NCBI RefSeq assembly: GCF_000014265.1
Contig: NC_008312.1
Span: 4,500,001-4,532,000 of the forward strand
DNA: 32,000 nt
Reading direction: 5' to 3'
DNA from: Trichodesmium erythraeum IMS101
Lineage (GTDB): Bacteria; Cyanobacteriota; Cyanobacteriia; Cyanobacteriales; Microcoleaceae
Below are positions 1,365 to 31,796 of the stretch, in pieces. Made by a program: the position numbers and the translations under genes. How positions within the stretch are numbered: position 1 is the first letter of the stretch; each line of letters opens with the position of its first letter. The notes beneath the pieces are model-generated. The model was not told where the DNA came from. It saw only the letters and a program-made list of their open reading frames with translations, and made no database searches.

Positions 1365-2900
1365 TTAGGTGATATTTTTTGATATTTTAGACAGATACTT
1401 GTGAATCTTTAAATATAAAGATCCAGATAGCTTTGGGGCTTTTAGTATTTGTCCATAACAGAAGATATAAGATCTCTCTGATAATATTTCTGGGGAAAAC
1501 CTTTTCAATGTTTACTGACTACTGTATATGATTATACCTTATAGTTTGCCATTTCTTAATAATCTCTTCATGAAATCCTCTGCTACTTGTGTTAGACTAA
1601 TTTTTTGTCCAAAACAATGACCATCAATATATCAATGAGAAGTAAAGGTTCTGATAACCTGAGAAATAAGTGTTAAGAAGTATATCCTGTACAAATGCTA
1701 AATTACGTAAATGATGATTATCTGTACTTGGAGTCAGATAACTTCCTTCTACTTGAATAGAGCCTGGCAAAATTTGAGCAACACTTTCTTTTCTTGTGCC
1801 GAATTCGCTAAATTTTTAACTAAATTGTATGTAGGAGCTAAGAAATAATCTGGTATGTTTTCATTTCCAGGTTGCTAGGTAGGAAAAACCTTGATTTTAG
1901 CTTACCAAATTCTCTGCAAAGATTTATCAATTCGTAATTCAGAAATACGGCCTGGAGCCACCGCGTCACAAACAGTATTAATTGTCTGCTCAGGATCTAC
2001 AGGCATACTTAAAATATCTGCATTAGGCAAACCATAAAAATTAGCGATCGCCCCCATAACCAAAACATCAGTCACAACTAATTCACCAAAACCCAACTTT
2101 TAGCGCAACTGACCCATAATAATTTTGTGGAGTAAACTTACTGATATTTTTCGTCCTTGCTCAGGATCAACAAATGGTTACTCATCACAGAATCTATCTC
2201 TGAAGCGCTCGCCTTCACAAAAGGAGATAATTCAACTGTTACCAATCTACTTTCCGAGTGAGATATAACTGGTAAATTAAAATGAGAATCAACTGTCGTA
2301 TCCCCATGACTAGGAAAATATTTAGCCGTGGTCAACCCTGGATATTTTTGAGCGCCTCAAAGAAAAACTCTTGAGAATTGACCAACCGAAGCCGTCGTTT
2401 CTCCAAAAGCTCGAATATTAATGACTGGGTTATCAGGATTATTATTTACATCTACCACTGGAGCCAATACCAATTCCAACCAATAGCCACAGCTTCTTGA
2501 GCTGTAATAGCTCCCATAGTTTCAGCATAACTGTTGGGCTCTTCTTTCAGATCAGTTTGAACAATAGTAGCGATCACCATTAGTGGAGGAAACTAAGTTA
2601 CCCCAGAAAGCCTTTTAGCAACTCCTTTCTGAACATCAGCAGCTAACAGCAAAGGAATTTTTGCCCTATACTAAATTTCTTGGATAGGAGTTACCAAGTC
2701 TATAGCACTTCCACCCGCAAAAACTACCTCTCTAATGCCCAAGTCTTCTACCCAAAATGAAAGCTTGCTTTAATGCCCAAGTCTTCTATCCAAAATGAAA
2801 GCTTGCTTTTCGGGAGATCTCAGTCTGAATAATGAATTTGATAGTCAAACCAATAGCCAGAGGCCATCAATGCGGCCATAGGATCAACTTTTTATGCTAA
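1365..2900 (-). pseudogene. Decayed glycoside hydrolase family 3 gene (NagZ / beta-glucosidase-related glycosidase type)
   Basis: Minus-strand translation gives GH3 blocks spread over three frames: MAALMASGYWFDYQIHY, AKIPLLLAADVQKGV, MGAITAQEAVAIG, LAPVVDVNNNPDNPVINIRAFGET, TTAKYFPSHGDTTVDSHFNLPV (GH3 K-H-F-P-G-H-G-D region), GFGELVVTDVLVMGAI, MPVDPEQTINTVCDAVAPGRISELRIDKSLQRIW, and a C-terminal YIFCYGQ block ending at TAA 1365-1367. The blocks are separated by multiple stops and frameshifts. The 5' limit is approximate. Confidence 0.75.
2734..2809. repeat. 38-bp tandem duplication (x2, 1 mismatch) inside the GH3 pseudogene
   Basis: AATGCCCAAGTCTTCTA(C/T)CCAAAATGAAAGCTTGCTTT at 2734-2771 and 2772-2809. 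The length is not a multiple of 3, so it is itself a frameshifting lesion. Confidence 0.9.
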
Positions 2901-20522: not shown

Positions 20523-20568
20523 TTAGTTTATGGACAGAATACTTATTAGTTTATGGACAGAATACTTA
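20523..20568. repeat. Perfect 23-bp tandem duplication (x2) ending 1 nt before a start codon
   Basis: TTAGTTTATGGACAGAATACTTA occurs at 20523-20545 and again at 20546-20568. The ATG of the next gene is at 20570. Confidence 0.95.
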
Positions 20569-20569
20569 A

Positions 20570-21883
20570 ATGAATAAATCACAAACATCACCTATTAATA
20601 GTATTTGGCTATTTATGATAATTTCAGCTACTGTTATAGCTGCATACAATAATAGAATGATGGAAATAACTGAAGCATCATTTGAAGCTGCCAAAAATGC
20701 CGTTACTTTAGCCATCGGACTAATTGGTAGTATGGCATTATGGTTAGGGATAATTCAAATAGTTGAAACAGCAGGAGGGATGAAAATAATTGCCCGTTTT
20801 ATTTACCCTATAATGGTAAAGCTTTTTCCAAATATACCTGCATCTCACCCTGCTATGTCTGCCATTATTTTCAATATAGCTGCTAATGCTTTAGGATTAG
20901 GAAATGCTGCAACACCTATGGGTTTAAAAGCTATGGCAGAAATGGATAAATTAAATCCAGAAAAGGGAACTGCTACAGATGCAATGTGTTTATTTTTAGC
21001 AATTAATACCTCTTCGGTAACTATAATTCCTATTAGTGTAATAACCATTCGAGCGAGTGCAGGTGTTACTAATCCTGGGGATATTATTTTACCTACAATT
21101 ATTGCTACTTTTTGTTCTACAATTATGGCAGTTGTAGCAGCAAAATTTTTTGCAAGTCGGCAACCAATGCCAAGTATAAATCAATCATTTACTTCAGAAG
21201 ATTTGGAGAAAAATGATTTGTTTGACAGAGAAGAAAAAATCTCAGAACTTACACCACCATCCAAAATTGGAAAGTTAGTTTTTGCTAGTTTAATTGGCGT
21301 TTTTTTAGGTGCAATAATTTATCGCTTAAGACTCAGAGGTATACCTTATATTTTTAGTCTTACTTTTCTCCAAAGTTTGTCTAATTGGTTATTACCAATA
21401 CTAATTTGTTCCTTTCTTTTGTTTGGCTATTTCCGAGGAGTTAAAGTTTATGAAACAATGACTGAAGGCGCAAAATCTGGATTTGAAGTTGCTATTAGAG
21501 TAATTCCTTTTATGGTGGCAATTTTTGTAGCAATTGGAATGTTTAGAGCTAGTGGTGCGCTAGATATTATAGCTGGAATTTTATCGCCCATAACTAATCT
21601 AATTGGAATACCAGCAGAAGCACTACCTATGGCACTAATTCGACCTTTATCTGGTAGTGGTGCTTTTGGCATTATGTCCGAAATAGTTACAAATGAACCA
21701 TTAAGTTTTCTATCCTATTTAGTATCAACTATCCAGGGTTCTACAGAAACAACTTTTTATGTATTAGCTGTTTATTTCGGCAGTGTTGGAATTAAAAAAA
21801 CTAGATATGCTTTGCCTGCTGCTTTATCTGCTGATCTGGTAGGAATTTTGATATCTGTGATAGTTTGCCGAATTACATTTTAA
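20570..21883 (+). CDS. Nucleoside-recognition-domain membrane protein (fused SpmA/SpmB type)
   Basis: Polytopic membrane protein. NIAANALGLGNAATPMGLKAMAEM and LIRPLSGSGAFGIM are typical of the Gate/nucleoside-recognition (SpmA, SpmB) family. Confidence 0.8.
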   Translation: MNKSQTSPINSIWLFMIISATVIAAYNNRMMEITEASFEAAKNAVTLAIGLIGSMALWLGIIQIVETAGGMKIIARFIYPIMVKLFPNIPASHPAMSAIIFNIAANALGLGNAATPMGLKAMAEMDKLNPEKGTATDAMCLFLAINTSSVTIIPISVITIRASAGVTNPGDIILPTIIATFCSTIMAVVAAKFFASRQPMPSINQSFTSEDLEKNDLFDREEKISELTPPSKIGKLVFASLIGVFLGAIIYRLRLRGIPYIFSLTFLQSLSNWLLPILICSFLLFGYFRGVKVYETMTEGAKSGFEVAIRVIPFMVAIFVAIGMFRASGALDIIAGILSPITNLIGIPAEALPMALIRPLSGSGAFGIMSEIVTNEPLSFLSYLVSTIQGSTETTFYVLAVYFGSVGIKKTRYALPAALSADLVGILISVIVCRITF

Positions 21884-22119: not shown

Positions 22120-23082
22120 ATGAAAGCAATCACTATTAATCGATATGGTTCCATTGATGTCTTAGAATATTCAGAAATTCAAGAACCATTAATTACATCA
22201 AATCAATTATTAGTAAAAATTCACGCTACTAGTGTTAATCCTGTTGATTGGAAAATTAGACAAGGGCAATTACAATTATTATCAGCTTTTAACTTTCCAA
22301 TTATTTTAGGTTGTGATTTATCTGGAGTTGTATTAAAAGTAGGAGAAAAAGTAGAAGACTTTAAACCTGGAGATGAAATTTATACATTCGTAAATCCATT
22401 ATTAGGAGGTGCTTATGCAGAGTATATTGCTGTACCTGCAAATACTGTTGCATTAAAACCAAAGAATATGAATTATTGCCAAGCTGCAGCAGTACCTGTA
22501 GCAGGTTTAACTGCTTTTCAAGCATTACTTGATTTAGGTCAAATTAGACCAGGAAAAAAAATATTAATTAATGGTGCTTCTGGGGGAGTTGGAACTTTTG
22601 CCGTACAAATTGCTAAGGCAATGAAAGCTGAAGTAATAGGTGTTTGTAGTAGTAAAAATATTACTCTAGTAGAAAGTTTAGGGGCTGATCGGGTTATTGA
22701 TTATAATCAGGTTGATTTTACTAAAGAATTTGAACAGTATGACATTATTTTTGATGCTGTGGGAAAAGAAACTTTTTCTAGTTGTGAAAATGTATTGAAA
22801 TCAGAAGGAGTTTATATTTCTACTCTACCAAATTTAGAAAATTTACCTTCTACTTTATTGACTTTATTTGTACCTGGTAAAAAGTCTAAATTAATTCTTG
22901 TTCAACCTAATCCTCGTGATTTAATTTCTCTCCGAAAATTGATTGAAGATGGATTAGTTAAATCAGTGATTGACCGAACATATAAGTTGGCAGAAATAGC
23001 AGCTGCTCATACTTATAGCGAAATGAATCATGCTGTTGGAAAAATTGTGATTATCAATGAAGAGATAAGTCTAGTTGAATAA
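22120..23082 (+). CDS. Medium-chain dehydrogenase/reductase, NADPH:quinone oxidoreductase-like
   Basis: MKAITINRYG...LLVKIHATSVNPVDWKIRQG and the NAD(P) fold ILINGASGGVGTFAVQIAK are present. The catalytic-zinc Cys/His ligands are absent, which indicates the quinone-reductase subclass. Confidence 0.85.
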   Translation: MKAITINRYGSIDVLEYSEIQEPLITSNQLLVKIHATSVNPVDWKIRQGQLQLLSAFNFPIILGCDLSGVVLKVGEKVEDFKPGDEIYTFVNPLLGGAYAEYIAVPANTVALKPKNMNYCQAAAVPVAGLTAFQALLDLGQIRPGKKILINGASGGVGTFAVQIAKAMKAEVIGVCSSKNITLVESLGADRVIDYNQVDFTKEFEQYDIIFDAVGKETFSSCENVLKSEGVYISTLPNLENLPSTLLTLFVPGKKSKLILVQPNPRDLISLRKLIEDGLVKSVIDRTYKLAEIAAAHTYSEMNHAVGKIVIINEEISLVE

Positions 23083-23133: not shown

Positions 23134-23571
23134 ATGTTGATTAAAAATGAACTTTTAGAAATAGAAACTGCTCCTGGAATTGAAATATACAATATTACTC
23201 CCCAAGTTATTGATATCTTAACTGCAACTGGTATAAATGATGGGCAGGTAATTGTATTTTCTAGACACACAACTACTGCTTTAGGGATTAATGAAAATGA
23301 GGAAAGATTAATTGAAGATTTGAAAGTATACTTAAGAAAGTTAGCGCCAGAATCTGACAAGTATCTTCATAATGATTTGCATTTGCGAGATGTTCCTCCG
23401 GATGAACCAATTAATGCTCATTCTCATCTTATAGCAATGACTTTAAATAATAGTGAGGTGATTCCTATTATGGATGGAAAATTAGCTTTAGGAACTTGGC
23501 AGTCAGTATTATTTTTTGAATTAGATGGACCTCGAAAAAGAAATGTATTAGTGCAGGTTACTGGTAGATAA
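23134..23571 (+). CDS. yjbQ: YjbQ/UPF0047 family protein (secondary thiamine-phosphate synthase enzyme)
   Basis: DITP...G.V.VFS.HTTTAL.INENE, NAHSH and LALGTWQSVLFFELDGPRKR are characteristic UPF0047 blocks. Confidence 0.85.
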   Translation: MLIKNELLEIETAPGIEIYNITPQVIDILTATGINDGQVIVFSRHTTTALGINENEERLIEDLKVYLRKLAPESDKYLHNDLHLRDVPPDEPINAHSHLIAMTLNNSEVIPIMDGKLALGTWQSVLFFELDGPRKRNVLVQVTGR

Positions 23572-24096
23572 AGTTTGATTATCTCAGTGTCTAATAAAAG
23601 GAAATAGGCAGTAGTAAAAATCCTTACTCTTGATTTATTTTTTTCTTTTTTGAACTGGTATTATTCTCAGACAATATATATTCTAAATTTCCACTTCAAG
23701 CAAGTTGGACGAGTTGGGAAATTATTAGTTTTCGCCAAAGTTTTAAGAGAGAGAAATTTTTATCAGGAAATTAGCAACTATATTTTGAAAAACTCAAAAA
23801 GTTACTGTTATTGTAGAGGATATTCAAATACTTGAAATTAAAGAGGCCTGTTTTGAGTATATCTGAGCACACCTTTTCCATTATGTTTATAGTATCATGT
23901 CAAGTGTTTTTAATCAACCACTTTGAGGATATTTTTAATTGAGTTAATTTAAATTTATTCCCTGGTTCATAACAGCCCAAAAACTGGCGAATTTTCTCTA
24001 AATTTGTCCCCAATTAGGGAAGCTTAAGTTTATAAAAAACTTTTAAATACTGACTAAAAATAAATTCAAGTGGAAGAGATAAATAAGGAAGGCTTT

Positions 24097-25353
24097 ATGT
24101 TGAAACAAATAACTTTGGAAAACTGGAAAAGTTTCCGTCATGCAGAATTATATATTGACCCATTAACGGTTTTAATTGGTACAAATGCTAGTGGGAAATC
24201 TAATGTTGTAGATGCCTTAGATTTTTTGAATAGTATGATGCAACGTGCTTCAGTAGAAACAGTATTAATAGGCGATCGCTTTACTCCAGGTATTAGAGGA
24301 GGAATTGAGTGGGCAGCTAGAAAACCAGAAACAAAATTTAGTTTTCAAGTATTAGTAGATGGGAAAGATAAAGGGAATGATTATCTTTATAAAATCACTG
24401 TAGAAAATACAAATGCTGTACAGGTAGTAGATGAATCTTTAACTTTAATTGATAGTCAAAATATCTCGGATAATAATTCATGTCAGCAACTTTTTTTTAT
24501 ATCCTTTACTTATGAAAAAAATAGAATAATTTATAAACATTATGAAGCAGAAAAAGAAGTTATAAAAAAATTTTATCCTACTCCTAATCCTTGGTTGGGT
24601 CATTCTACAGATAAGATTCCATTCTATGAATTTGATGATGTTAATCAAATGATGTCTGCGCAAATTATGGTTCCAGAGATTCTCAAAAATATTTTTATTT
24701 TAAATCCAATACCTTCGCAAATGAGGTATCCTTCACCTCTATCAACAAAGTTAGAAAGAGACGGTTCTAATATTGCTGGAGTTTTAGCAGCATTACCACA
24801 ACCAATAAAAGCTCAAGTAGAGGAAAAACTATTAAAATATCTGGCAAAATTACCAGAAGGAGATATGCAAAAAGTATGGTCTGAATCTGTGGGAAGATTA
24901 GGTAGGGATGCCATACTTTACTGTGAAGAAATCTGGGATTTTAACAAAGACCCAATGATAGTTGATGCTAGTGGAATGTCAGATGGAACTTTGCGATTTT
25001 TAGCAATTTTAACAGCAATGTTAACTCAACCAGAAAATAGTCTAATTGTCATAGAAGAAGTTGATAATGGTTTACATCTTTCTCGCGCTAGATTACTATT
25101 AGAAATGCTAAGAGAAATTGGTCAACAGCGTCAAATTTATATCTTAGTTACAACCCATAATTCTGCTTTATTAGATGAGCTAACTCCAGATTTTATTCCT
25201 TTTGTAATGGTAGCTTATCGAGATAAACAAACCGGAGAAAGTCAGTTAATTCCTTTAGAGGATATTGGAGATTTACCGAAGTTAATGGCATCAGGAACTT
25301 TAGGTAAAATTGCTAGTAATAGTTTGATTGAAAAAAGTCTTAAAGTAAATTAG
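24097..25353 (+). CDS. ABC-type / SMC-like ATPase (AAA_21/AAA_15-like), candidate defence-module ATPase
   Basis: MLKQITLENWKSFRHAELYIDPLTVLIGTNASGKSNVVDAL carries the Walker A motif. Also present are the signature-like MSDGTLRFLAIL, Walker B LIVIEEVDNGLH and H-loop VTTHNS. ATG 24097 is preceded by AAGGAAGG; the track ORF begins at GTG 24070. No nuclease domain is fused. Confidence 0.8.
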   Translation: MLKQITLENWKSFRHAELYIDPLTVLIGTNASGKSNVVDALDFLNSMMQRASVETVLIGDRFTPGIRGGIEWAARKPETKFSFQVLVDGKDKGNDYLYKITVENTNAVQVVDESLTLIDSQNISDNNSCQQLFFISFTYEKNRIIYKHYEAEKEVIKKFYPTPNPWLGHSTDKIPFYEFDDVNQMMSAQIMVPEILKNIFILNPIPSQMRYPSPLSTKLERDGSNIAGVLAALPQPIKAQVEEKLLKYLAKLPEGDMQKVWSESVGRLGRDAILYCEEIWDFNKDPMIVDASGMSDGTLRFLAILTAMLTQPENSLIVIEEVDNGLHLSRARLLLEMLREIGQQRQIYILVTTHNSALLDELTPDFIPFVMVAYRDKQTGESQLIPLEDIGDLPKLMASGTLGKIASNSLIEKSLKVN

Positions 25354-26234
25354 ATAGCCGGAGAAAGTCAGTTAATTCATTTAGAGGATATTGGAGATTT
25401 ACCGAAGTTAATGGCATCAGGAACTTTAGGCAAAATTGCTAGTAATAGTTGATTGAAAAAAGTCTTAAAGTAAATTAGATAGCCGGAGAAAGTCAGTTAA
25501 TTCATTTAGAAGATATTGGAGATTTACCGAAGTTAATGGCATCAGGAACTTTAGGTAAAATTGCTAGTAATAGTTTGATTGAAAAAAGTCTTAAAGTAAA
25601 TTAGATAGCCGGAGAAAGTCAGTTAATTCATTTAGAAGATATTGGAGATTTACCGAAGTTAATGGCATCAGGAACTTTAGGTAAAATTGCTAGTAATAGT
25701 TTGATTGAAAAAAGTCTTAAAGTAAATTAGATAGCCGGAGAAAGTCAGTTAATTCATTTAGAGGATATTGGAGATTTACCGAAGTTAATGGCATCAGGAA
25801 CTTTAGGCAAAATTGCTAGTAATAGTTGATTGAAAAAAGTCTTAAAGTAAATTAGATAGCCGGAGAAAGTCAGTTAATTCATTTAGAGGATATTGGAGAT
25901 TTACCGAAGTTAATGGCATCAGGAACTTTAGGCAAAATTGCTAGTAATAGTTGATTGAAAAAAGTCTTAAAGTAAATTAGATAGCCGGAGAAAGTCAGTT
26001 AATTCATTTAGAGGATATTGGAGATTTACCGAAGTTAATGGCATCAGGAACTTTAGGCAAAATTGCTAGTAATAGTTGATTGAAAAAAGTCTTAAAGTAA
26101 ATTAGATGGCCGGAGAAAGTCAGTTAATTCATTTAGAGGATATTGGAGATTTACCGAAGTTAATGGCATCAGGAACTTTAGGCAAAATTGCTAGTAATAG
26201 TTGATTGAAAAAAGTCTTAAAGTAAATTAGATAG
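25232..26234 (+). repeat. Tandem array, 8 units of 125/126 bp; unit 1 is the native 3' end of the ATPase CDS and units 2-8 are extra copies
   Basis: Units start at 25232, 25358, 25483, 25609, 25735, 25860, 25985 and 26110, and the array ends at 26234. Each unit runs CCGGAGAAAGTCAGTTAATTC...AAAGTAAATTAGATAG and carries the last 41 codons, the TAG stop and 4 nt of spacer. Units differ by 0-4 nt. Confidence 0.95.
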
Positions 26235-26235
26235 T

Positions 26236-26842
26236 ATGAAAAAAGTGCTGATTATTGATACTTCAATTTTCTGTGTTTATTTAGGAGTAACTGGCAAAGA
26301 AAACTGTGGTTCTAAGGGTAATAAGTTGATAAAATTCAAGTAGATGAAAAACTGAAAAATTAGGAAGAAGAAAAAACGACATTTGTTTTACTTTTAGCAA
26401 CAATTATTGAAATAGGTAATCATATTGCTCAAGCATCAACAAAGCGTTATAAAATAGCAAAAAAAAAATTAGCTAATCTGATGAAATTAACTGCAGATAA
26501 CCCAACTCCTTGGGCAGCATTTATAGAACTATTAGTTTTATGGAATAGCAAAAAAAATTAGCTAATCTGATGAAATTAGCTGCAGATAACCCAACTCCTT
26601 GGGCAGCATTTATAGAACTATCAGTTTTATGGAATTCAGAAAATTTGAAGCAGTTAGCTGATGAATTTCCTAATTTTGCTAATCAAGGATTGGTCCTAGG
26701 AGATGCTACAATTAAACAGATTGCTAACTATTATAATAAGTGAGAAAATCAGGTAGAAATTTTGACAGGAGATAAAAGTTTAAAATCATATTAACTTCCC
26801 GAACCTCGGCTAATTCCTAGACGCAGAAGAGACAAGAATTAA
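26236..26842 (+). pseudogene. Decayed PIN-like nuclease gene, formerly abutting the ATPase gene
   Basis: Pieced together across frames: MKKVLIIDTSIFCVYLGVTGKENCGSKGNK / VDKIQVDEKLKN* / EEEKTTFVLLLATIIEIGNHIAQAS...LANLMKLAADNPTPWAAFIELSVLWNSENLKQLADEFPNFANQGLVLGDATIKQIANYYNK*ENQVEILTGDKSLKSY*LPEPRLIPRRRRDKN*. Acidic residues sit in PIN-like contexts (IIDTS, IIEIGN, LGDATI, LTGD). There are at least five lesions: one frameshift, three in-frame stops and one 91-bp duplication. Confidence 0.55.
26454..26635. repeat. About 90-bp tandem duplication (x2) inside the PIN-like pseudogene
   Basis: ATAGC(A)nTTAGCTAATCTGATGAAATTA(A/G)CTGCAGATAACCCAACTCCTTGGGCAGCATTTATAGAACTAT(T/C)AGTTTTATGGA at 26454-26544 (A-run of 10) and 26545-26633 (A-run of 8). 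Confidence 0.9.
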
Positions 26843-27032: not shown

Positions 27033-27262
27033 AATACCAGAAATTCCTCCAGTAACCAGAGCAATTTTTCCATCAAATTCGTTACTCATAATTTATGGTT
27101 GTGTAAATAACATTAAATTTGGGCAAAATTATCTAATCATTACTCAGATAAAATTAGTAATTATTCAAAAATAATCACTAATTATAAAAAATTTTTCTCC
27201 CAAAGAAAAAGGGCAAATCAGAGATTTTTTTTTCGGCTTCAATAGCTCAAAAAATAAATCAA
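27033..27262 (-). pseudogene. Fragment copy of the SDR gene 5' end (19 codons, MSNEFDGKIALVTGGISG) plus a copy of its upstream region
   Basis: 27033-27262 aligns colinearly by eye, at roughly 80% identity, with 28021-28250 (the first codons and upstream region of the intact SDR). The fragment start codon is at 27089-27087 on the minus strand, and the reading frame ends after about 19 codons. Confidence 0.8.
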
Positions 27263-27309: not shown

Positions 27310-28077
27310 TTATTGCGCAATCAAACCTCCATCTATTCTGAGAGAATGACCAGTAATAAAACTAGCTGCATCAGAACATAACCAGACAACAGCATTGGCT
27401 ACTTCTTCTGGTTGACCAATACGACCAATAGGGTTTGCTGCTACTATTTTTGCTTTAGCTTCACTATCACCTATTTGGGCAAAAGCACGCTCAATCATAT
27501 CTGTTTGAATGAAACCAGGACAAACAGCATTAATTCTAATACCTGCTGTTGCTTGTTCCAGAGCAAGGGCTCTTGTTAAGCCTATTACACCATGTTTACT
27601 AGCACAGTAAATTGACGAATTAAGAGTACCAATTAGCCCTGCTATAGAAGCATTATTCACTATTGCTCCCCCGCCATTTTTTAACATTTCAGGAATTTGA
27701 TATTTCATCGATAACCAAACTCCTTTAAGATTAATATCAATTACCTGATTCCAATTTTCTTCAGTTTGCTCAATACTAGGTCCTATTATCCCTTCTATAC
27801 CTGCATTATTAAATGCATAATCTAAACTACTATAGGTATTAATTGTTTGATTCACTAAATTTTCAACTTCAATAGCTTGAGTAATATCTGTTTTGAAAAA
27901 GATAGCTTCGCTGCCAACTTCTTTAATCATTGCTACTGTTTCTTCACCTTCTTTTTCCCGGCGACTGGCAATAACTACTTTGGCTCCTTTCTTAGCAAAA
28001 GCTATAGCAGTAGCTCTACCAATACCAGAACTTCCTCCAGTAACTAAAGCAATTTTTCCTTCAAATTCTTTACTCAT
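27310..28077 (-). CDS. Short-chain dehydrogenase/reductase (classical SDR, FabG/glucose-1-dehydrogenase-like)
   Basis: TGGSSGIGRA (cofactor motif), NNAG and the catalytic S...YCASK are present. 255 aa. Confidence 0.9.
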   Translation of the reverse strand: MSKEFEGKIALVTGGSSGIGRATAIAFAKKGAKVVIASRREKEGEETVAMIKEVGSEAIFFKTDITQAIEVENLVNQTINTYSSLDYAFNNAGIEGIIGPSIEQTEENWNQVIDINLKGVWLSMKYQIPEMLKNGGGAIVNNASIAGLIGTLNSSIYCASKHGVIGLTRALALEQATAGIRINAVCPGFIQTDMIERAFAQIGDSEAKAKIVAANPIGRIGQPEEVANAVVWLCSDAASFITGHSLRIDGGLIAQ

Positions 28078-28321
28078 AATTTATGCTTGCGTAAATAACA
28101 TTATATTTTATGTAAATTATCTTATCATGCCTCAGATAAAATTAATAATTCTTTTTTAATGGTCACTAATTATTAAAAAAATAATTCATTATAAAAAGGG
28201 CAAATTAGAAACTTCTAGCTACTTCAATAGCTCAAAAAATGAATAAAATTTATTTGGTGAAGACTTGATTAATCATAGAATAAAAGGGAGCTTTACTGCC
28301 TAGTTTTTTTAAAGTTATTTA

Positions 28322-28455
28322 TACTGTTTCTTTACTTTCTTTTTCCCTACGACTGGCAATAACTATTTTGGATATTTTTTTAGCAAAAGATATAGCATTA
28401 ACTATACCAATAGCACGACTTTCTCCAGTAATTAGGGTGGCTTTTCTCTCAAATT
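28322..28455 (-). pseudogene. Second, more diverged fragment of the SDR 5' region (about codons 4-48), no start codon
   Basis: 28322-28455 aligns with 27934-28067 of the intact SDR gene (TACTGTTTCTT.ACTTTCTTTTTCCC..CGACTGGCAATAACTA.TTTGG...). The Gly-rich motif region is degenerate. Confidence 0.7.
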
Positions 28456-29051
28456 ATGTAATTATATTTATGATGTATTTGTTTCAAAATATGATAGTAT
28501 ATAAAACTAATTAGCTATTAGCTTGTAGCATTTTTGTACCGAGATGTTCCGTAAATATCTAGCCTTCTGGCTTAGAACTACTTTAAAAGTTGTTAACAGC
28601 TCTTGATTCAAGCTTACGGCTATCATTATACCAGATGTTTTAGGAAGGTTTAAAATATATTTCTAAAGGTCACAATAAATAATCCTACTAACCAAAAAAA
28701 TAAGGTCTCAAGCTTCCCATTTGGATGAAAAAATACTCAATTCAGTATTTCAAGGCTATGGCTTCAGTCAGAGGTACTAATAACTGATAACTTAAATGAC
28801 TACTGATTTAATTTTCAGCATTTATCTAGTCTTTTAACTATGATATAAAAAAATTATCCTCAAATATATTTATAGCTACATCGATGCAGTAAATTGGTTA
28901 GAGTCTAAAATCAATTATGATGGTAGTTATTCTCTAGGAACTGAGGATTTAGCTTGTTATTATAAGGAGACTTATCTGTTGTATATATTTTGACTTCCGT
29001 AAATAAAATCATATAGCGATCGCCCTATTTGTCCCATAATTAATTTTGCCA

Positions 29052-31796
29052 ATGTCCTACTCTGTCCCAAAAATCTCAAAACCTGTCCTAGCTGAACCGG
29101 GGTCATCTTACAACAGCCATTCCCCAGAGTTGCAAAAGTTGGTAGAAGTCTTAGTTGATGTTCCTGTTAAAACTTCAACAGAAAATGCTGAAGAGTCTGT
29201 CCAAATACTCTCAAAATCTGTCCTAGCTGAACCGGGGTCATCTTATAATAACCATTCCCCAGAGTTGCAAGAGTTGGTAGAAGTCTTAGTTGATGTCCCT
29301 TTTCAAACTTCAACAGATGATGCTGAAGAAGAGGAAAAATTATTTACCTACAAAATACCTCCTGAACTGGACATTCAACCAGGAGACATTGTAATAGTAC
29401 CTTTTGGCAGACAACAAGTAGGAGGGATCGCTATCCGCAAAACCTCTAAACTACCAGAAGGTTTAAGTAGCGATCGCTTGAAAAATATATCAGATATTAT
29501 TACTAAAGGTTTTTTCCCTGCCACTTATTGGCAACTCCTGGAAAAAGTCGCTATCTATTATCAAACACCACTTATTAAAGTAATTCGCGCAGCTCTACCA
29601 CCAGGGCTACTCAAAGGTAGTCAACGACGCATTCGCATCATCGAAGCAGCAATACCAACAGGAGGAGAAATTTTTCTCAATGCAAATGCTCAAAAAATTC
29701 TGGAAATTCTGCAAAACTCCAAAACTAAAGACTACACCTGGAAATACATTCAACGTCAAGTCAAAGGTGCTGAAAGAGGATTAAAAGATTTACTACAACG
29801 AGGTTGGGTAGAAAGTTATCTCGAACCCCCTTCCCCACCAAAACCAAAACTCAGACAAGCAGTTACTCTAGTTGCTCAAACCCCACCCAAAGATTTAACC
29901 CCACGCCAACAAGAAGTCATGGAAGTATTACGCCAAAGTGGAGGGGAAATGTGGTTAACAGAATTACTTAACACTTGCAAAACTACGACTTCTGTGGTAA
30001 AAAAACTGGAAGAAAAAGGCTATGCTGTCATTCAGGAACAAGAAATATTACGCCGAGAACAAGGCAGAGGTAATACCAGAGATGAAATAAAAATGCTTAC
30101 ATCCTACCAAACAGAAGCATTAACAACAATTACCAAGATTCAAGAATTTGCTCAAGTTTTGCTACATGGAGTTACAGGATCTGGAAAAACAGAGGTATAT
30201 TTACAGGCGATCGCTCCCATCCTCGAAAATGGTAAATCTGCTCTTGTACTAGTTCCCGAAATTGGTCTCACTCCTCAACTGACCGATAGATTTCGCGCTC
30301 GTTTTGGCAAAAAAGTATATGTTTACCATAGCGCCTTATCTGCTGGAGAACGTTATGACACTTGGCGTAACATGACCTGGGGTATTCCACAAATTATCAT
30401 CGGTACTCGTTCAGCAATTTTTGCCCCCCTGCCAAAATTAGGTCTAATTGTTTTAGACGAAGAACACGATAACAGCTTTAAACAAGACCGCCCTGCACCT
30501 TGTTATCACGCTCGCACTGTAGCGAAATGGCGAGCAGAATTAGAAAACTGTCCATTAATATTAGGTTCAGCAACTCCCTCTTTAGAAAGTTGGTTGGAAA
30601 CAAGAAAATACTATCAAGACAAAAAGATTCAAGCATCCCCCTATCTACTAGAAAATATAGACAAAAATGTTTCCCCAACAGGCAACACCCAAAATTTAAC
30701 ACCTAACACTTACTACCTATCATTACCAGAACGGATCCACTCACGACCGATGCCACCTGTCGAAATAGTAGATATGCGTCAACAACTACGACAGGGAAAC
30801 CGGACAATGTTTAGCTATCCTCTACAAGAAGCACTGCAAGAACTACAGGAAACAAAACAACAAGGAATTTTATTCATTCACCGTCGCGGTTACAGCACAT
30901 TTGTCTCTTGTCGCAGTTGTGGTCATGTAATGGAATGCCCCCATTGCGATGTTTCCCTTTCCTATCATTATACCCACGAAGGTGCAACTGAACTATTACG
31001 TTGTCATTACTGCAATTATAACGAATTACAACCACAACGTTGTCCTAAATGTGGTTCTCCTTTTTTCAAATTTTTTGGCAGTGGAACTCAAAAAGTAGCG
31101 CAGGAGTTAACAAGACAGTTTCCTGGCTTACGATATATTAGATATGATAGCGACACTACTCGCAAAAAGGATGCCCACCGAAATTTGTTAAATCAATTTG
31201 CTAATGGTGAAGCAGATTTATTGATCGGTACCCAAATGTTGACAAAAGGCTTAGATTTGGCACAGGTGACATTAGTAGGAGTCGTCTCTGCTGATGGGTT
31301 GCTACATTTTTCAGATTATCGCGCTAATGAACGAACTTTTCAAACATTACTGCAAGTAGCAGGTCGTGCGGGTCGTGGAGATAACCCAGGGCGAGTAATT
31401 ATTCAGACCTATACTCCAGAACATCCTGTGATTCAAGCAGTGCAACGTAATGATTATGAGTCTTTTGTGGAAACAGAATTACAAGGAAGAGCAGAATTGC
31501 ACTATCCTCCTTATGGGCGGTTGATTTTATTACGTTTGAGTAGTTATGATCCGACTGAGGTAGCTGTGACTGCTCAAGAGTTGGCAAGTGTGTTGAGGGA
31601 AAAAGAGGGAAAGGAAAAATATGATTTATTGGGTCCTGCACCGGCTCCTATTGCTAGAATAGCTAATCGTTATCGTTGGCAGATTTTGTTAAAGTTATTG
31701 TCTGGATATGAGAATGTACCTGATCTGACTCAGTTGAGTAATTTTTGTCGTCCTGGGGTAAGTTTGACTGTAGATGTTGATCCTATGAATTTGTGA
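29052..31796 (+). CDS. priA: Primosomal protein N' (replication restart helicase PriA)
   Basis: Walker A LLHGVTGSGKTEVYL, Walker B LDEEHD, the Cys-rich zinc region CRSCGHVMECPHCDVSLSYH...CHYCNY...CPKCGS, and the C-terminal GRAGRG are all present. ATG is at 29052; the track ORF starts at TTG 29046. Confidence 0.95.
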   Translation: MSYSVPKISKPVLAEPGSSYNSHSPELQKLVEVLVDVPVKTSTENAEESVQILSKSVLAEPGSSYNNHSPELQELVEVLVDVPFQTSTDDAEEEEKLFTYKIPPELDIQPGDIVIVPFGRQQVGGIAIRKTSKLPEGLSSDRLKNISDIITKGFFPATYWQLLEKVAIYYQTPLIKVIRAALPPGLLKGSQRRIRIIEAAIPTGGEIFLNANAQKILEILQNSKTKDYTWKYIQRQVKGAERGLKDLLQRGWVESYLEPPSPPKPKLRQAVTLVAQTPPKDLTPRQQEVMEVLRQSGGEMWLTELLNTCKTTTSVVKKLEEKGYAVIQEQEILRREQGRGNTRDEIKMLTSYQTEALTTITKIQEFAQVLLHGVTGSGKTEVYLQAIAPILENGKSALVLVPEIGLTPQLTDRFRARFGKKVYVYHSALSAGERYDTWRNMTWGIPQIIIGTRSAIFAPLPKLGLIVLDEEHDNSFKQDRPAPCYHARTVAKWRAELENCPLILGSATPSLESWLETRKYYQDKKIQASPYLLENIDKNVSPTGNTQNLTPNTYYLSLPERIHSRPMPPVEIVDMRQQLRQGNRTMFSYPLQEALQELQETKQQGILFIHRRGYSTFVSCRSCGHVMECPHCDVSLSYHYTHEGATELLRCHYCNYNELQPQRCPKCGSPFFKFFGSGTQKVAQELTRQFPGLRYIRYDSDTTRKKDAHRNLLNQFANGEADLLIGTQMLTKGLDLAQVTLVGVVSADGLLHFSDYRANERTFQTLLQVAGRAGRGDNPGRVIIQTYTPEHPVIQAVQRNDYESFVETELQGRAELHYPPYGRLILLRLSSYDPTEVAVTAQELASVLREKEGKEKYDLLGPAPAPIARIANRYRWQILLKLLSGYENVPDLTQLSNFCRPGVSLTVDVDPMNL
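29061..29330 (+). repeat. In-frame 135-bp (45-codon) tandem duplication at the 5' end of priA
   Basis: Unit 1 (29061-29195) encodes SVPKISKPVLAEPGSSYNSHSPELQKLVEVLVDVPVKTSTENAEE. Unit 2 (29196-29330) encodes SVQILSKSVLAEPGSSYNNHSPELQELVEVLVDVPFQTSTDDAEE. 35 of 45 residues are identical. Confidence 0.9.

What the first reader, a model, noticed from the sequence alone, without database searches (positions are those of the whole stretch)
24097..26842. Candidate two-gene ATPase + PIN-like nuclease module (defence/abortive-infection-like), with the nuclease partner decayed
The 418-aa protein from 24097 has the full ABC/SMC-type motif set (Walker A GTNASGKS, signature-like SDGTLRFL, Walker B IEEVDNGLH, H-loop TTHNS) and no effector domain. 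This is the architecture of the ATPase components of two-gene anti-phage systems, in which AAA_15/AAA_21 ATPases pair with a nuclease (for example Septu PtuA/PtuB, PARIS AriA/AriB, AbiL/RloAB-like pairs). The gene that originally started 5 nt after its stop can be reconstructed across frames into a protein of about 190 aa. Its acidic residues lie in PIN-like contexts (IIDTS near the N-terminus, IIEIGN, LGDATI, LTGD), and it has a basic C-terminal tail (RLIPRRRRDKN). That gene now carries at least five inactivating lesions, while the ATPase ORF is intact. I cannot tell from memory whether this exact ATPase + PIN-like pairing is a catalogued system. The locus lies between housekeeping-type genes (yjbQ, SDR) and next to duplicated or fragmentary DNA, as small accessory modules often do.
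Basis: partly seen in the sequence, partly recalled or inferred. Interest (0 to 1): 0.68.

Follow-up and report, generated by a model that had tools for sequence, protein, structure and literature searches.

The report
Decayed ATPase plus PIN-nuclease defence-candidate module
This is a broken copy, in a Trichodesmium-like cyanobacterium, of a two-gene ATPase plus PIN-nuclease module already listed as an untested anti-phage candidate (PADLOC PDC-M07): the ATPase reading frame survives, the nuclease gene is dead, and a 125-base piece of the gene junction has been copied eight times.

Summary
The ORF at 24097-25353 encodes an intact 418-aa SMC-head-type ABC ATPase. The region 26236-26842 is the remnant of a 171-aa partner gene.

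The pairing is already catalogued. The ATPase matches PADLOC PDC-M07A (E 3e-157) and the frame-corrected partner matches PDC-M07B (E 2e-43). PDC-M07 is one of 145 untested "phage defence candidates" of Payne et al. 2024.

The partner is a PIN-fold protein. A model of an intact orthologue (pLDDT 88) finds only VapC/PIN structures. D8, E59, D126 and D149 are invariant in the family.

The two genes are tightly linked:
- 80 of 80 genomic loci with B have A immediately upstream.
- 71 of 75 metagenomic loci with A (and room downstream) have an intact B downstream.
- No third gene is conserved.

Five lesions break the partner ORF: a 1-nt deletion, three stop codons and an 89-bp tandem duplication. 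An 8-copy tandem array of 125/126 bp (25232-26234) now puts 882 nt between the genes instead of 5.

The module sits at the same place beside priA in Dapis and Okeania, so it was inherited vertically. Related Trichodesmium contigs show every state: both genes intact, A broken, B broken, both broken. The module is therefore eroding across the genus.

Anti-phage function is still untested. This is a new, dead member of a known candidate kind, and interest is modest.

The parts
24097..25353 (+). PDC-M07A-type ABC/SMC-head ATPase gene. The 418-aa ORF is intact.
   Evidence: PADLOC PDLC04391 hit at E 3e-157 over residues 1-416. Pfam AAA_21, AAA_15 and SMC_N. The AF2 model (pLDDT 79, pTM 0.83) is closest to SMC and Rad50 heads and to PtuA. 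Window-specific replacements P328L, D348Y and G409S fall at positions conserved in 97-100% of relatives.
25232..26234 (+). Tandem array of 8 copies of a 125/126-bp unit. The unit is the last 41 codons of the ATPase gene, its stop codon and 4 nt of the spacer. Copy 1 (25232-25357) is the functional 3' end of the gene.
   Evidence: TRF reports period 125, 8.0 copies, 98% matches, score 1930, and also period 251. Unit boundaries and the two variants (126 bp and 125 bp) are. Relatives L001, L002, L004 and L085 carry one copy. All copies share window-derived substitutions, so the array is younger than the split from the L001 lineage.
26236..26842 (+). Pseudogene of the PDC-M07B-type PIN-fold nuclease. 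The ancestral protein was 171 aa.
   Evidence: The frame-corrected translation hits PADLOC PDLC04394 at E 2e-43 over residues 1-157. It is 83% identical to the intact P0001. The fold of the orthologue is PIN/VapC. dN/dS against L001 is about 0.98.
26327..26330 (+). Lesion 1: a G-to-T substitution plus a 1-nt deletion, which shifts the frame at about codon 31-32.
   Evidence: DNA alignment to L001, L004, L085 and L002.
26361..26363 (+). Lesion 2: an in-frame TAG that replaces GAG.
26461..26635 (+). Lesion 3: an 89-bp tandem duplication that starts in a poly-A tract and shifts the frame by +2.
   Evidence: TRF reports period 89, 2.0 copies, 97% matches. The repeat finder family D4. Relatives have a single copy.
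26741..26743 (+). Lesion 4: TGA that replaces TTA.
26792..26794 (+). Lesion 5: TAA that replaces CAA.

Best explanation
The locus is a vertically inherited, degenerating copy of the two-gene module that PADLOC lists as phage-defence candidate PDC-M07. Gene A encodes an SMC-head-type ABC ATPase. Gene B encodes a 171-aa PIN-fold nuclease with a basic C-terminal tail.

In intact relatives B starts about 5-20 nt after A's stop on the same strand. The pair is therefore almost certainly co-transcribed and probably translationally coupled (inferred).

In this genome B is dead. It has five ORF-breaking lesions, neutral-looking substitution and losses at invariant residues. An 8-copy tandem amplification of the A-B junction has pushed it 882 nt away from A. 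As a two-component system the module cannot work here.

A keeps a full-length ORF. It also shows signs of relaxed constraint, so it is either an orphan in early decay or is retained for some B-independent role.

Inferred mechanism of the intact system, by analogy and not shown here: the ATPase oligomer holds or senses, and the PIN protein is the effector, most likely a Mg2+-dependent RNase of the VapC type. A phage cue would release or activate it, and it would arrest the infected cell. This follows HEC-03 (ABC ATPase plus PIN, both genes required for defence) and PARIS (AriA releases the AriB nuclease).
For: Identity:
- PDC-M07A at E 3e-157 and PDC-M07B at E 2e-43.
- The intact orthologues P0123 and P0001 give the same best hits.
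- PDC-M07 is cassette CAS_00050, FAM_00005>>FAM_01367, with 406 RefSeq instances, "assigned as candidate".

PIN fold:
- Model quality and PDB matches.
- Invariant D8, E59, D126 and D149.
- Sub-threshold Pfam PIN_12 or PIN hits in 10 and 5 of 50 members.

ATPase fold: SMC head, Rad50 and PtuA.

Linkage:
- 80 of 80 loci and 71 of 75 loci.
- No third conserved gene.

Decay: lesions, B dN/dS about 1, and the array.

Vertical inheritance:
- Dapis has Gate-ADH-YjbQ-A-B-...-PriA.
- Okeania has A-B-SDR-PriA.

Genus-wide erosion:
- L001: both genes intact.
- L004 and L085: B has E113*.
- L169 to L171: B has a +AA frameshift.
- L172: A has a stop at codon 103 and B is intact.
- L173: both genes broken.

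Analogies: HEC-03 and the ABC-ATPase defence superfamily; the PARIS abstract (PMC11464382).
Against: - No experiment shows that PDC-M07 defends against phage. The source paper calls the 145 PDC systems untested.
- In my sample the immediate neighbours of the module are mostly housekeeping genes. Only a few are defence genes: PglZ, type I R-M specificity subunits and mad5.
- In this clade the module sits at a fixed chromosomal site, not in a mobile island.
- RNase activity, the A-B interaction and the trigger are all inferred.
- A has no disabling lesion while B, which is 2.4 times shorter, has five. This argues that A was not simply neutral for the whole period.
Confidence: 0.88

Rival explanations
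1. The ATPase is still functional as an orphan. After B was lost it was kept by selection for a B-independent role, or to work in trans with another effector.
For: In the window lineage, five ORF-breaking lesions hit the 516-nt B gene and none hit the 1257-nt A gene. Under equal neutral rates the chance is about 0.29^5, roughly 0.002 (my calculation). All invariant motif residues of A are kept. Pairwise dN/dS for A is 0.38-0.45, against about 1 for B.
Against: Polarised with outgroups, the window branch of A has about 14 non-synonymous to 5 synonymous changes (omega about 0.75). The sister branch has 8 to 10 (omega about 0.21). The window-branch changes include P328L, D348Y and G409S, at positions conserved in 97-100% of relatives. 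Other Trichodesmium lineages have A broken, at stop 103 in L172 and stop 378 in L173, so A is dispensable in the genus. The counts are small.
Confidence: 0.25
2. PDC-M07 is not an anti-phage system. It is a chromosomal toxin-antitoxin-like or RNA-metabolism module: an ATPase-regulated PIN RNase with a stress or housekeeping role.
For: The module keeps a stable syntenic position beside priA across Trichodesmium, Dapis and Okeania. Its neighbours are mostly housekeeping genes such as MutS, AlaRS, GcvP and transporters. Only 2 hits were found in 2.9 million viral contigs. There is no experimental defence data.
Against: The cassette was picked because it is found embedded inside known defence systems. 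The ATPase's nearest families are all defence-associated: HEC-01A, AbiLi, AriA, mad3 and PtuA-like. Its patchy spread across phyla fits an accessory module: Cyanobacteria, Desulfobacterota, Gammaproteobacteria, Chloroflexota, Bacteroidota and Thermotogota. Its repeated loss in Trichodesmium shows it is dispensable. A TA-like abortive mechanism and defence are not mutually exclusive.
Confidence: 0.2
3. The 8-copy array, and possibly the 89-bp duplication, is an assembly artefact, and the true genome has a single junction.
For: All relatives recovered from short-read assemblies have one copy. I could not lay reads on the region.
Against: The copies are not identical. Two unit variants (126 bp and 125 bp, differing at 3-4 sites) occur in an ordered higher-order pattern, plus a private change in copy 7. 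This is typical of real unequal-crossover arrays. Short-read assemblers collapse such arrays rather than create them. The same window holds other tandem duplications, and one of them (in priA) is shared with an independent assembly. Tandem amplification of a gene's 3' part is documented in T. erythraeum IMS101 (PMC4143802). Even without the array, B carries four other lesions.
Confidence: 0.08

Closest known systems
PADLOC PDC-M07 (phage defence candidate, multi-gene no. 07; Payne et al. 2024, bioRxiv 10.1101/2024.01.29.577857)
   Same: Both proteins match the PDC-M07A and PDC-M07B HMMs over their full length. The gene order is A>>B on the same strand, with nothing else conserved.
   Different: This copy is dead: B is a pseudogene and is separated from A by a tandem array. 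The family itself is an untested candidate with no described mechanism. The PIN fold of B was established here by modelling, not taken from the catalogue.
HEC-03 (ABC ATPase plus VapC-like PIN protein; experimentally validated, both genes required; same paper)
   Same: It has the same architecture and logic: an ABC ATPase with no effector domain, followed by a small PIN-domain protein that has no VapB partner.
   Different: There is no sequence-level membership. Neither the corrected window B nor the intact P0001 hits any HEC-03B model at E <= 0.01-1. The ATPase's best non-M07 hits are HEC-01A, the TOPRIM-partnered family FAM_00005.
PARIS (AriA ABC ATPase plus AriB TOPRIM nuclease)
   Same: It is a two-gene pair of an ABC ATPase and a nuclease. 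The ATPase hits the AriA models at E 9e-29. PARIS provides the release-of-nuclease model (PMC11464382).
   Different: The effector fold is TOPRIM, not PIN. The AriA match is far weaker than the PDC-M07A match. No trigger is known for PDC-M07.
Septu / retron-associated PtuA-PtuB
   Same: The ATPase model aligns with PtuA structures (8eea, 9n6b, 9nnb; E about 1e-11).
   Different: The partner there is an HNH nuclease. The NCBIfam PtuA score is 30.9 bits against a cut-off of 500. The coiled-coil or insert region is short and poorly modelled here (residues 124-174).
VapBC type II toxin-antitoxin (VapC PIN RNases)
   Same: B's fold and acidic tetrad match VapC (5x3t_B, 3zvk, 5wzf and others).
   Different: There is no VapB-like antitoxin, and the upstream partner is a 418-aa ATPase. 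B is about 40 aa longer. It has a conserved Cys-containing insert (C13...C24-G25), an ETGNH motif and a P-R-R-R tail. The Pfam PIN models are not reached at threshold.
Tandem array of a gene's 3' part in T. erythraeum IMS101 (Tery_0080 array; Pfreundt et al. 2014, PMC4143802)
   Same: Both are tandem amplifications, of 7-8 copies, of a segment that contains the 3' part of the adjacent gene, in a Trichodesmium genome rich in non-coding DNA.
   Different: That array has 736-973-bp units, contains foreign sequence and yields a very abundant ncRNA. Here the unit is 125 bp, is made purely of the gene's 3' end and spacer, and its expression is unknown.

Membership tests
PADLOC PDC-M07 | Protein A matches a PDC-M07A HMM | tested here: met
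   PDLC04391 at E 3e-157, residues 1-416 on profile positions 1-406 of 412.
PADLOC PDC-M07 | Protein B matches a PDC-M07B HMM | tested here: met
   The frame-corrected translation hits PDLC04394 at E 2e-43, residues 1-157 on profile positions 1-149 of 154. This holds only after five lesions are read through.
PADLOC PDC-M07 | A and B are adjacent on the same strand, with A first | tested here: met
   The order is kept. The spacing has grown from 5 nt to 882 nt because of the array. In relatives, 80 of 80 and 71 of 75 loci are adjacent.
PADLOC PDC-M07 | Both genes are intact, giving a functional system | tested here: not met
   B has a frameshift, three stop codons and an 89-bp duplication.
PADLOC PDC-M07 | Anti-phage activity | not testable with these tools
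   The authors list it as untested. No paper in the library mentions PDC-M07 in its main text.
PIN-domain nucleases (Pfam clan PIN, VapC-like) | Three-layer alpha/beta/alpha PIN fold | tested here: met
   The AF2 model of orthologue P0001 has pLDDT 88. The top 30 PDB matches are all PIN/VapC proteins, with probability 0.80-1.00 and TM up to 0.72. The test was run on the orthologue, not on the broken window gene.
PIN-domain nucleases (Pfam clan PIN, VapC-like) | Four conserved acidic residues in canonical positions: the end of beta1, the helix after beta2, and after beta3 and beta4 | tested here: met
   D8, E59, D126 and D149 are invariant in 50 sequences. Their positions match the model's secondary structure. 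All four codons are still present in the window remnant.
PIN-domain nucleases (Pfam clan PIN, VapC-like) | Match to a Pfam PIN-clan HMM at the gathering threshold | tested here: not met
   The corrected window protein gets no hit. Only sub-threshold PIN_12 (10 of 50 members, best E 3e-4) and PIN (5 of 50, best E 0.015) hits appear.
PIN-domain nucleases (Pfam clan PIN, VapC-like) | Metal-dependent nuclease activity | not testable with these tools
   This needs a biochemical assay.
HEC-03 (validated ABC ATPase plus PIN defence system) | B matches a HEC-03B HMM | tested here: not met
   Only PDC-M07B models are returned at E <= 1 for the window protein and at E <= 0.01 for P0001.
HEC-03 (validated ABC ATPase plus PIN defence system) | A matches a HEC-03A HMM better than other ATPase families | tested here: not met
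   The top 25 hits are PDC-M07A, HEC-01A, AbiLi, AriA and others, with no HEC-03A among them.
RecF / RecN / SMC housekeeping ATPases | Score above the NCBIfam equivalog cut-off | tested here: not met
   RecF scores 28.6 bits against 172, RecN 21.3 against 408 and SMC 24.5 against 729. All three matches cover only the N-terminal P-loop region.
VapBC type II toxin-antitoxin | A small VapB-type antitoxin gene lies immediately upstream of the PIN toxin | tested here: not met
   The upstream partner is the 418-aa ABC ATPase in 80 of 80 loci.

The most novel reading that the evidence does not exclude
The eight-fold amplification of the A-B junction is not mere junk. It would be a Trichodesmium-style expressed repeat, as with the Tery_0080 array that yields the cell's most abundant ncRNA. 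Alternatively it would be a selected way of uncoupling a toxic PIN effector from its ATPase. In either case the surviving ATPase would be maintained as an orphan with a new, B-independent role.
Probability: 0.08. Interest if true: 0.55.

Novelty: new member of a known kind. Interest (0 to 1): 0.27.

Why it matters
The locus itself adds little, because it is a dead copy of a module that a public defence-system catalogue already contains.

Three by-products are useful.

1. Effector fold. The PDC-M07 partner has no Pfam or NCBIfam family. It is shown here to be a PIN-fold protein with an invariant D-E-D-D tetrad, a Cys-containing insert and a basic tail. This gives the untested candidate a concrete, mutable effector hypothesis and places it beside the validated HEC-03 architecture.

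2. Strength of linkage. The linkage of A and B (80 of 80 and 71 of 75 loci) across at least six phyla makes PDC-M07 a good candidate for experimental testing.

3. A natural series of states. Trichodesmium populations carry every state of the module: both genes intact, A dead, B dead, both dead. One genome has an 8-copy junction amplification. This illustrates how accessory modules erode in this pseudogene-rich genus. It also supplies knock-outs that could be compared if phage pressure on Trichodesmium is studied.

Tried and rejected
- Read support.
- Literature. A full-text search for "PDC-M07" found no paper. The only record is a supplementary table of Payne et al.. A search for "PDC-M" returned mostly unrelated papers.
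- Sequence searches for B. The Pfam and NCBIfam searches of the corrected B gave nothing. The profile search of PDB sequences with the B family gave only a chance ribosomal-protein hit. The fold comparison was needed.
- A asymmetry hypothesis, rejected. I first thought B is repeatedly lost while A is always kept, which would point to an antitoxin-like or independently useful A. Looking up the shorter A-like proteins on purpose showed L172 (A stop at codon 103, B intact) and L173 (both broken). Three genome loci, L013, L017 and L018, have a disrupted or truncated A next to an intact B. The clean asymmetry was therefore dropped, and only the weaker within-window argument is kept.
- Regulatory features. 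The Rfam scan of the whole window gave no match. The promoter and terminator scan gave no excess over shuffled sequence.
- Third gene. A search for a conserved third gene found none. The only other recurrent ORF cluster is an antisense shadow ORF inside A, plus lineage-specific synteny such as MutS in Nostocales.
- Neighbourhood enrichment. Only per-family counts were available, so the fraction of defence neighbours is an impression (a few of 91), not a statistic.
Full report
**1. What is in the sequence**

The ORF list and the raw sequence show an intact reading frame from ATG 24097 to TAG 25351-25353, encoding 418 aa. The mechanical ORF begins at GTG 24070. All orthologues start at the MLKQ of 24097, and M1 is an invariant column.

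Directly over the 3' end of this gene, Tandem Repeats Finder reports an array at 25232-26234. It has period 125, 8.0 copies, 98% matches and score 1930. Splitting it by hand gives eight units of 126 or 125 bp. Each unit is the last 41 codons of the ATPase gene, its stop codon and four spacer bases. Copy 1 is the real 3' end of the gene. The ATG of the next gene (26236) follows the last copy with the ancestral spacing, TAG-ATAGT-ATG. The distance from the functional stop codon to that ATG is now 882 nt.

From 26236 to 26842 a second gene can be followed across three frames.

**2. Identity of the two genes**

The ATPase hits Pfam AAA_21 (4e-30), AAA_15 (5e-20) and SMC_N (7e-16). Against PADLOC-DB it matches PDC-M07A end to end at E 3e-157. 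The next families are far weaker: HEC-01A at 1e-42, AbiLi at 4e-32 and AriA at 9e-29.

NCBIfam scores for RecF, RecN, SMC, Rad50 and PtuA are all far below their cut-offs and cover only the P-loop region. The housekeeping alternative therefore fails.

An AlphaFold2 model built on 35 family members has pLDDT 79 and pTM 0.83. Residues 124-174, the insert, are poorly defined. The model is closest to SMC and Rad50 head domains and to PtuA of Septu and retron effector complexes, at E about 1e-11.

The frame-corrected downstream protein matches PADLOC PDC-M07B at E 2e-43 over its whole length. It matches nothing in Pfam or NCBIfam.

**3. The partner is a PIN-fold protein**

A database search with the corrected protein returned more than 1,100 homologues of about 170 aa. 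Nearly all are "hypothetical"; a few sources name them PIN or VapC.

In an alignment of 50 of them, D8, E59, D126 and D149 are invariant. So are T9, C13, G25, N62, H63, P91 and W92. A P-R-R motif in the basic tail is nearly invariant.

The intact orthologue P0001 is 83% identical to the corrected window protein. It models at pLDDT 88 and pTM 0.82. Its top thirty Foldseek PDB matches are all PIN domains: M. tuberculosis VapCs, FitB, PAE0151, PAE2754, Shigella VapC, SMG6 and Nmd4. Their probability is 0.80-1.00 and TM reaches 0.72.

The four acidic residues sit where the PIN catalytic tetrad sits:
- at the end of beta1;
- in the helix after beta2;
- at the start of the helix after beta3;
- after the last strand.

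At the sequence level only sub-threshold Pfam hits appear: PIN_12 in 10 of 50 members and PIN in 5 of 50.

**4. Linkage**

Scanning one genome per GTDB species with the B profile gave 538 confirmed loci, and the best 80 were fetched. In all 80 an A homologue lies immediately upstream on the same strand. I estimated the gaps at about 5-50 nt, mostly 9-15.

Clustering all flank ORFs showed that only A and B recur.

In the reverse direction I scanned metagenome contigs with the A profile.
- 71 of 75 loci with room downstream have an intact B directly downstream.
- Three of the four exceptions (L111, L126, L148) contain B fragments. Only L120 has none.
- A viral-contig locus, L167, at first looked like a further exception. 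It carries a divergent B.

Hosts span Cyanobacteria, Desulfobacterota, Gammaproteobacteria (Dickeya, Methylomonas, Methylovulum, Leucothrix), Chloroflexota, Bacteroidota, Thermotogota, Cloacimonadota and others. That spread is typical of an accessory module.

Only two viral-contig hits were found. Immediate neighbours are mostly housekeeping genes, with a few defence genes: PglZ, type I R-M specificity subunits and mad5.

**5. What is known about it**

PDC-M07 comes from Payne et al. 2024 (bioRxiv 10.1101/2024.01.29.577857). Cassettes found embedded in known defence systems were curated into 145 "phage defence candidates", which the authors explicitly call untested.

The supplementary table lists CAS_00050, FAM_00005>>FAM_01367, with 406 RefSeq instances, "Assign as candidate PDC-M07". 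FAM_00005 is also the ATPase family of HEC-01.

The same paper validates HEC-03, an ABC ATPase plus a VapC-like PIN protein, with both genes required for defence. HEC-03 is the closest functional analogue. The window's B and its intact orthologue do not hit HEC-03B models, so this is a parallel family and not a member.

No paper in the library mentions PDC-M07 in its main text.

**6. Decay in this genome**

The comparison is with L001, a metagenomic relative that is 96.7% identical in gene A and has both genes intact.

B carries five ORF-breaking lesions:
- a 1-nt deletion at 26329/26330;
- TAG at 26361-26363;
- an 89-bp tandem duplication at 26461-26635 that begins in a poly-A tract;
- TGA at 26741-26743;
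- TAA at 26792-26794.

B also has replacements at invariant or near-invariant positions: P53L, T60I, P19T, T23N and W31L. dN/dS for B between the window and L001 is about 0.98.

All eight array copies share substitutions derived in the window lineage, including those that cause K408N and G409S. The amplification is therefore younger than the split from the L001 lineage. The copies differ from one another at no more than four or five positions and fall into an ordered pattern of two variants.

I could not check the array against reads. Three points support it:
- its internal variant structure;
- the other tandem duplications in the same window, one of which, in priA, is shared with an independent assembly;
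- the published precedent of a 7-copy array containing the 3' part of Tery_0080 in T. erythraeum IMS101 (PMC4143802).

**7. Is the ATPase healthy?**

It keeps every invariant residue, and pairwise dN/dS is 0.38-0.45.

Polarising changes with Dapis and Okeania outgroups gives a different picture.
- The window branch has about 14 non-synonymous to 5 synonymous changes (omega about 0.75).
- The sister branch has 8 to 10 (omega about 0.21).
- The window-branch changes include P328L, D348Y and G409S, at positions conserved in 97-100% of non-Trichodesmium relatives.

On the other side, five ORF-breaking lesions in the 516-nt B gene and none in the 1257-nt A gene would be unlikely if both had been neutral throughout (about 0.002).

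My reading is that A outlived B under some constraint and is now relaxing. The numbers are small and I leave this open.

**8. History**

The closest named relative is a partial ATPase from "Trichodesmium sp. St16_bin2-tuft", 97% identical.

Dapis sp. BLCC M126 has the gene order Gate-ADH-YjbQ-A-B-RpiB-PriA. This is the same position as in the window, where the order is Gate 20570-21883, ADH 22120-23082, YjbQ 23134-23571, A, B, SDR 27310-28077 (minus strand), PriA 29046-31796. Okeania has A-B-SDR-PriA. The module was therefore present at this site in the common ancestor of the clade. It is not a recent insertion.

Within Trichodesmium-like contigs every state occurs:

| Contig | Gene A | Gene B |
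|---|---|---|
| L001 | intact | intact |
| L004, L085 | intact | E113* |
| L169, L170, L171 | intact | +AA frameshift in the same poly-A tract |
| L172 | stop at codon 103 | intact |
| L173 | stop at codon 378 | both of the B lesions above |

I had begun to favour a "B is lost, A is kept" asymmetry. Looking up the shorter A-like proteins on purpose removed it. The module is eroding as a whole in the genus. That fits what is known about this genome: only about 60% of it is coding, and it is rich in pseudogenes and repeats (PMC4143802).

**9. Mechanism**

Shown here:
- the families and folds of both proteins;
- the catalytic-type residues of B;
- the tight operon-like linkage;
- the inactivation in this genome.

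Inferred:
- the two genes are co-translated and form a complex;
- the ATPase senses or gates;
- the PIN protein is a Mg2+-dependent RNase that arrests the infected cell.

The inference rests on analogy with HEC-03, PARIS (PMC11464382) and VapC toxins (established knowledge). The conserved basic tail could be a docking peptide or a nucleic-acid anchor. That is speculation.

**10. Verdict**

The system is already catalogued, as an untested candidate. This copy is non-functional as a pair.

Novelty is "new member of a known kind", and interest is modest. The useful residue is threefold: the PIN assignment for PDC-M07B, the quantified linkage, and the natural series of knock-out states in Trichodesmium.

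Noticed in passing
window 29061-29329: There is an in-frame 135-bp tandem duplication (2 copies, 90% matches) in the 5' part of the priA gene (29046-31796). It repeats a roughly 45-aa N-terminal segment (...KPVLAEPGSSYN.HSPELQ.LVEVLVDVP...). Both copies are also present in the related contig L085, so the duplication is older than the split of these lineages. Dapis has one copy.
   Followed up: partly
window 27033-27191, 27929-28081, 28021-28179, 28317-28469: Fragments of the 5' end and upstream region of the SDR gene (27310-28077, minus strand) are duplicated on both sides of that gene, at 78-84% identity. This includes a pseudo-start (MSNEFDGKIALVTGG-like) at about 27040-27092 on the minus strand. 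It is more local duplication debris next to the decayed module.
   Followed up: partly
window 23572-24096, compared with L001, L085, L168, L169 and L172: In the sister Trichodesmium-like contigs an HSP70/MreB-like gene (minus strand, 313-532 aa) lies directly upstream of the ATPase. In L085 it is accompanied by IS630-type transposase fragments, and in L169 by a yjbQ truncated to 37 aa. The window and Dapis instead have an intact yjbQ and a 525-nt spacer. The upstream flank has therefore been rearranged in the sister lineage.
   Followed up: partly
window 23852-23924; L002 4092-4157 and 4473-4545: A roughly 70-nt intergenic element upstream of the ATPase occurs once in the window and twice in the Dapis intergenic region, at 89-94% identity. 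It is a small conserved or repeated non-coding element of unknown nature. It has no Rfam match.
   Followed up: no
window 2733-2809 and 20523-20568: The window holds two further short tandem duplications: 38 bp x 2 and 23 bp x 2, the latter ending at the start codon (20570) of the Gate-family transporter gene. Tandem duplication appears to be frequent in this genome.
   Followed up: no
L126, L148 and L111 (metagenome contigs): Outside cyanobacteria there are also loci with a full-length A followed by only fragments of B. One has an internal deletion that leaves ...WAAF...ILTGD...PRRR. One has nothing left but the VPRRRQRR tail. One has an N-terminal stub. Loss of B with A left behind is therefore not unique to Trichodesmium.
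   Followed up: partly
L166 (IMGVR_UViG_2528311002_000009) and L167 (IMGVR_UViG_2687453693_000004): Only two viral or proviral contigs out of 2.9 million carry the module. One has a B protein 52% identical to the query and the other a divergent B at 29% identity. Both have A directly upstream. The module is thus rarely carried by phages or prophages.
   Followed up: partly
B family alignment A1, columns for C13, C24, G25, N62 and H63: The PDC-M07B PIN proteins carry an invariant or near-invariant Cys pair in an insert after beta1 (C13...C24-G25) and an E-T-G-N-H motif around the catalytic Glu. These features are not typical of VapC. They could mark a metal or redox site, or the interface with the ATPase.
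   Followed up: no
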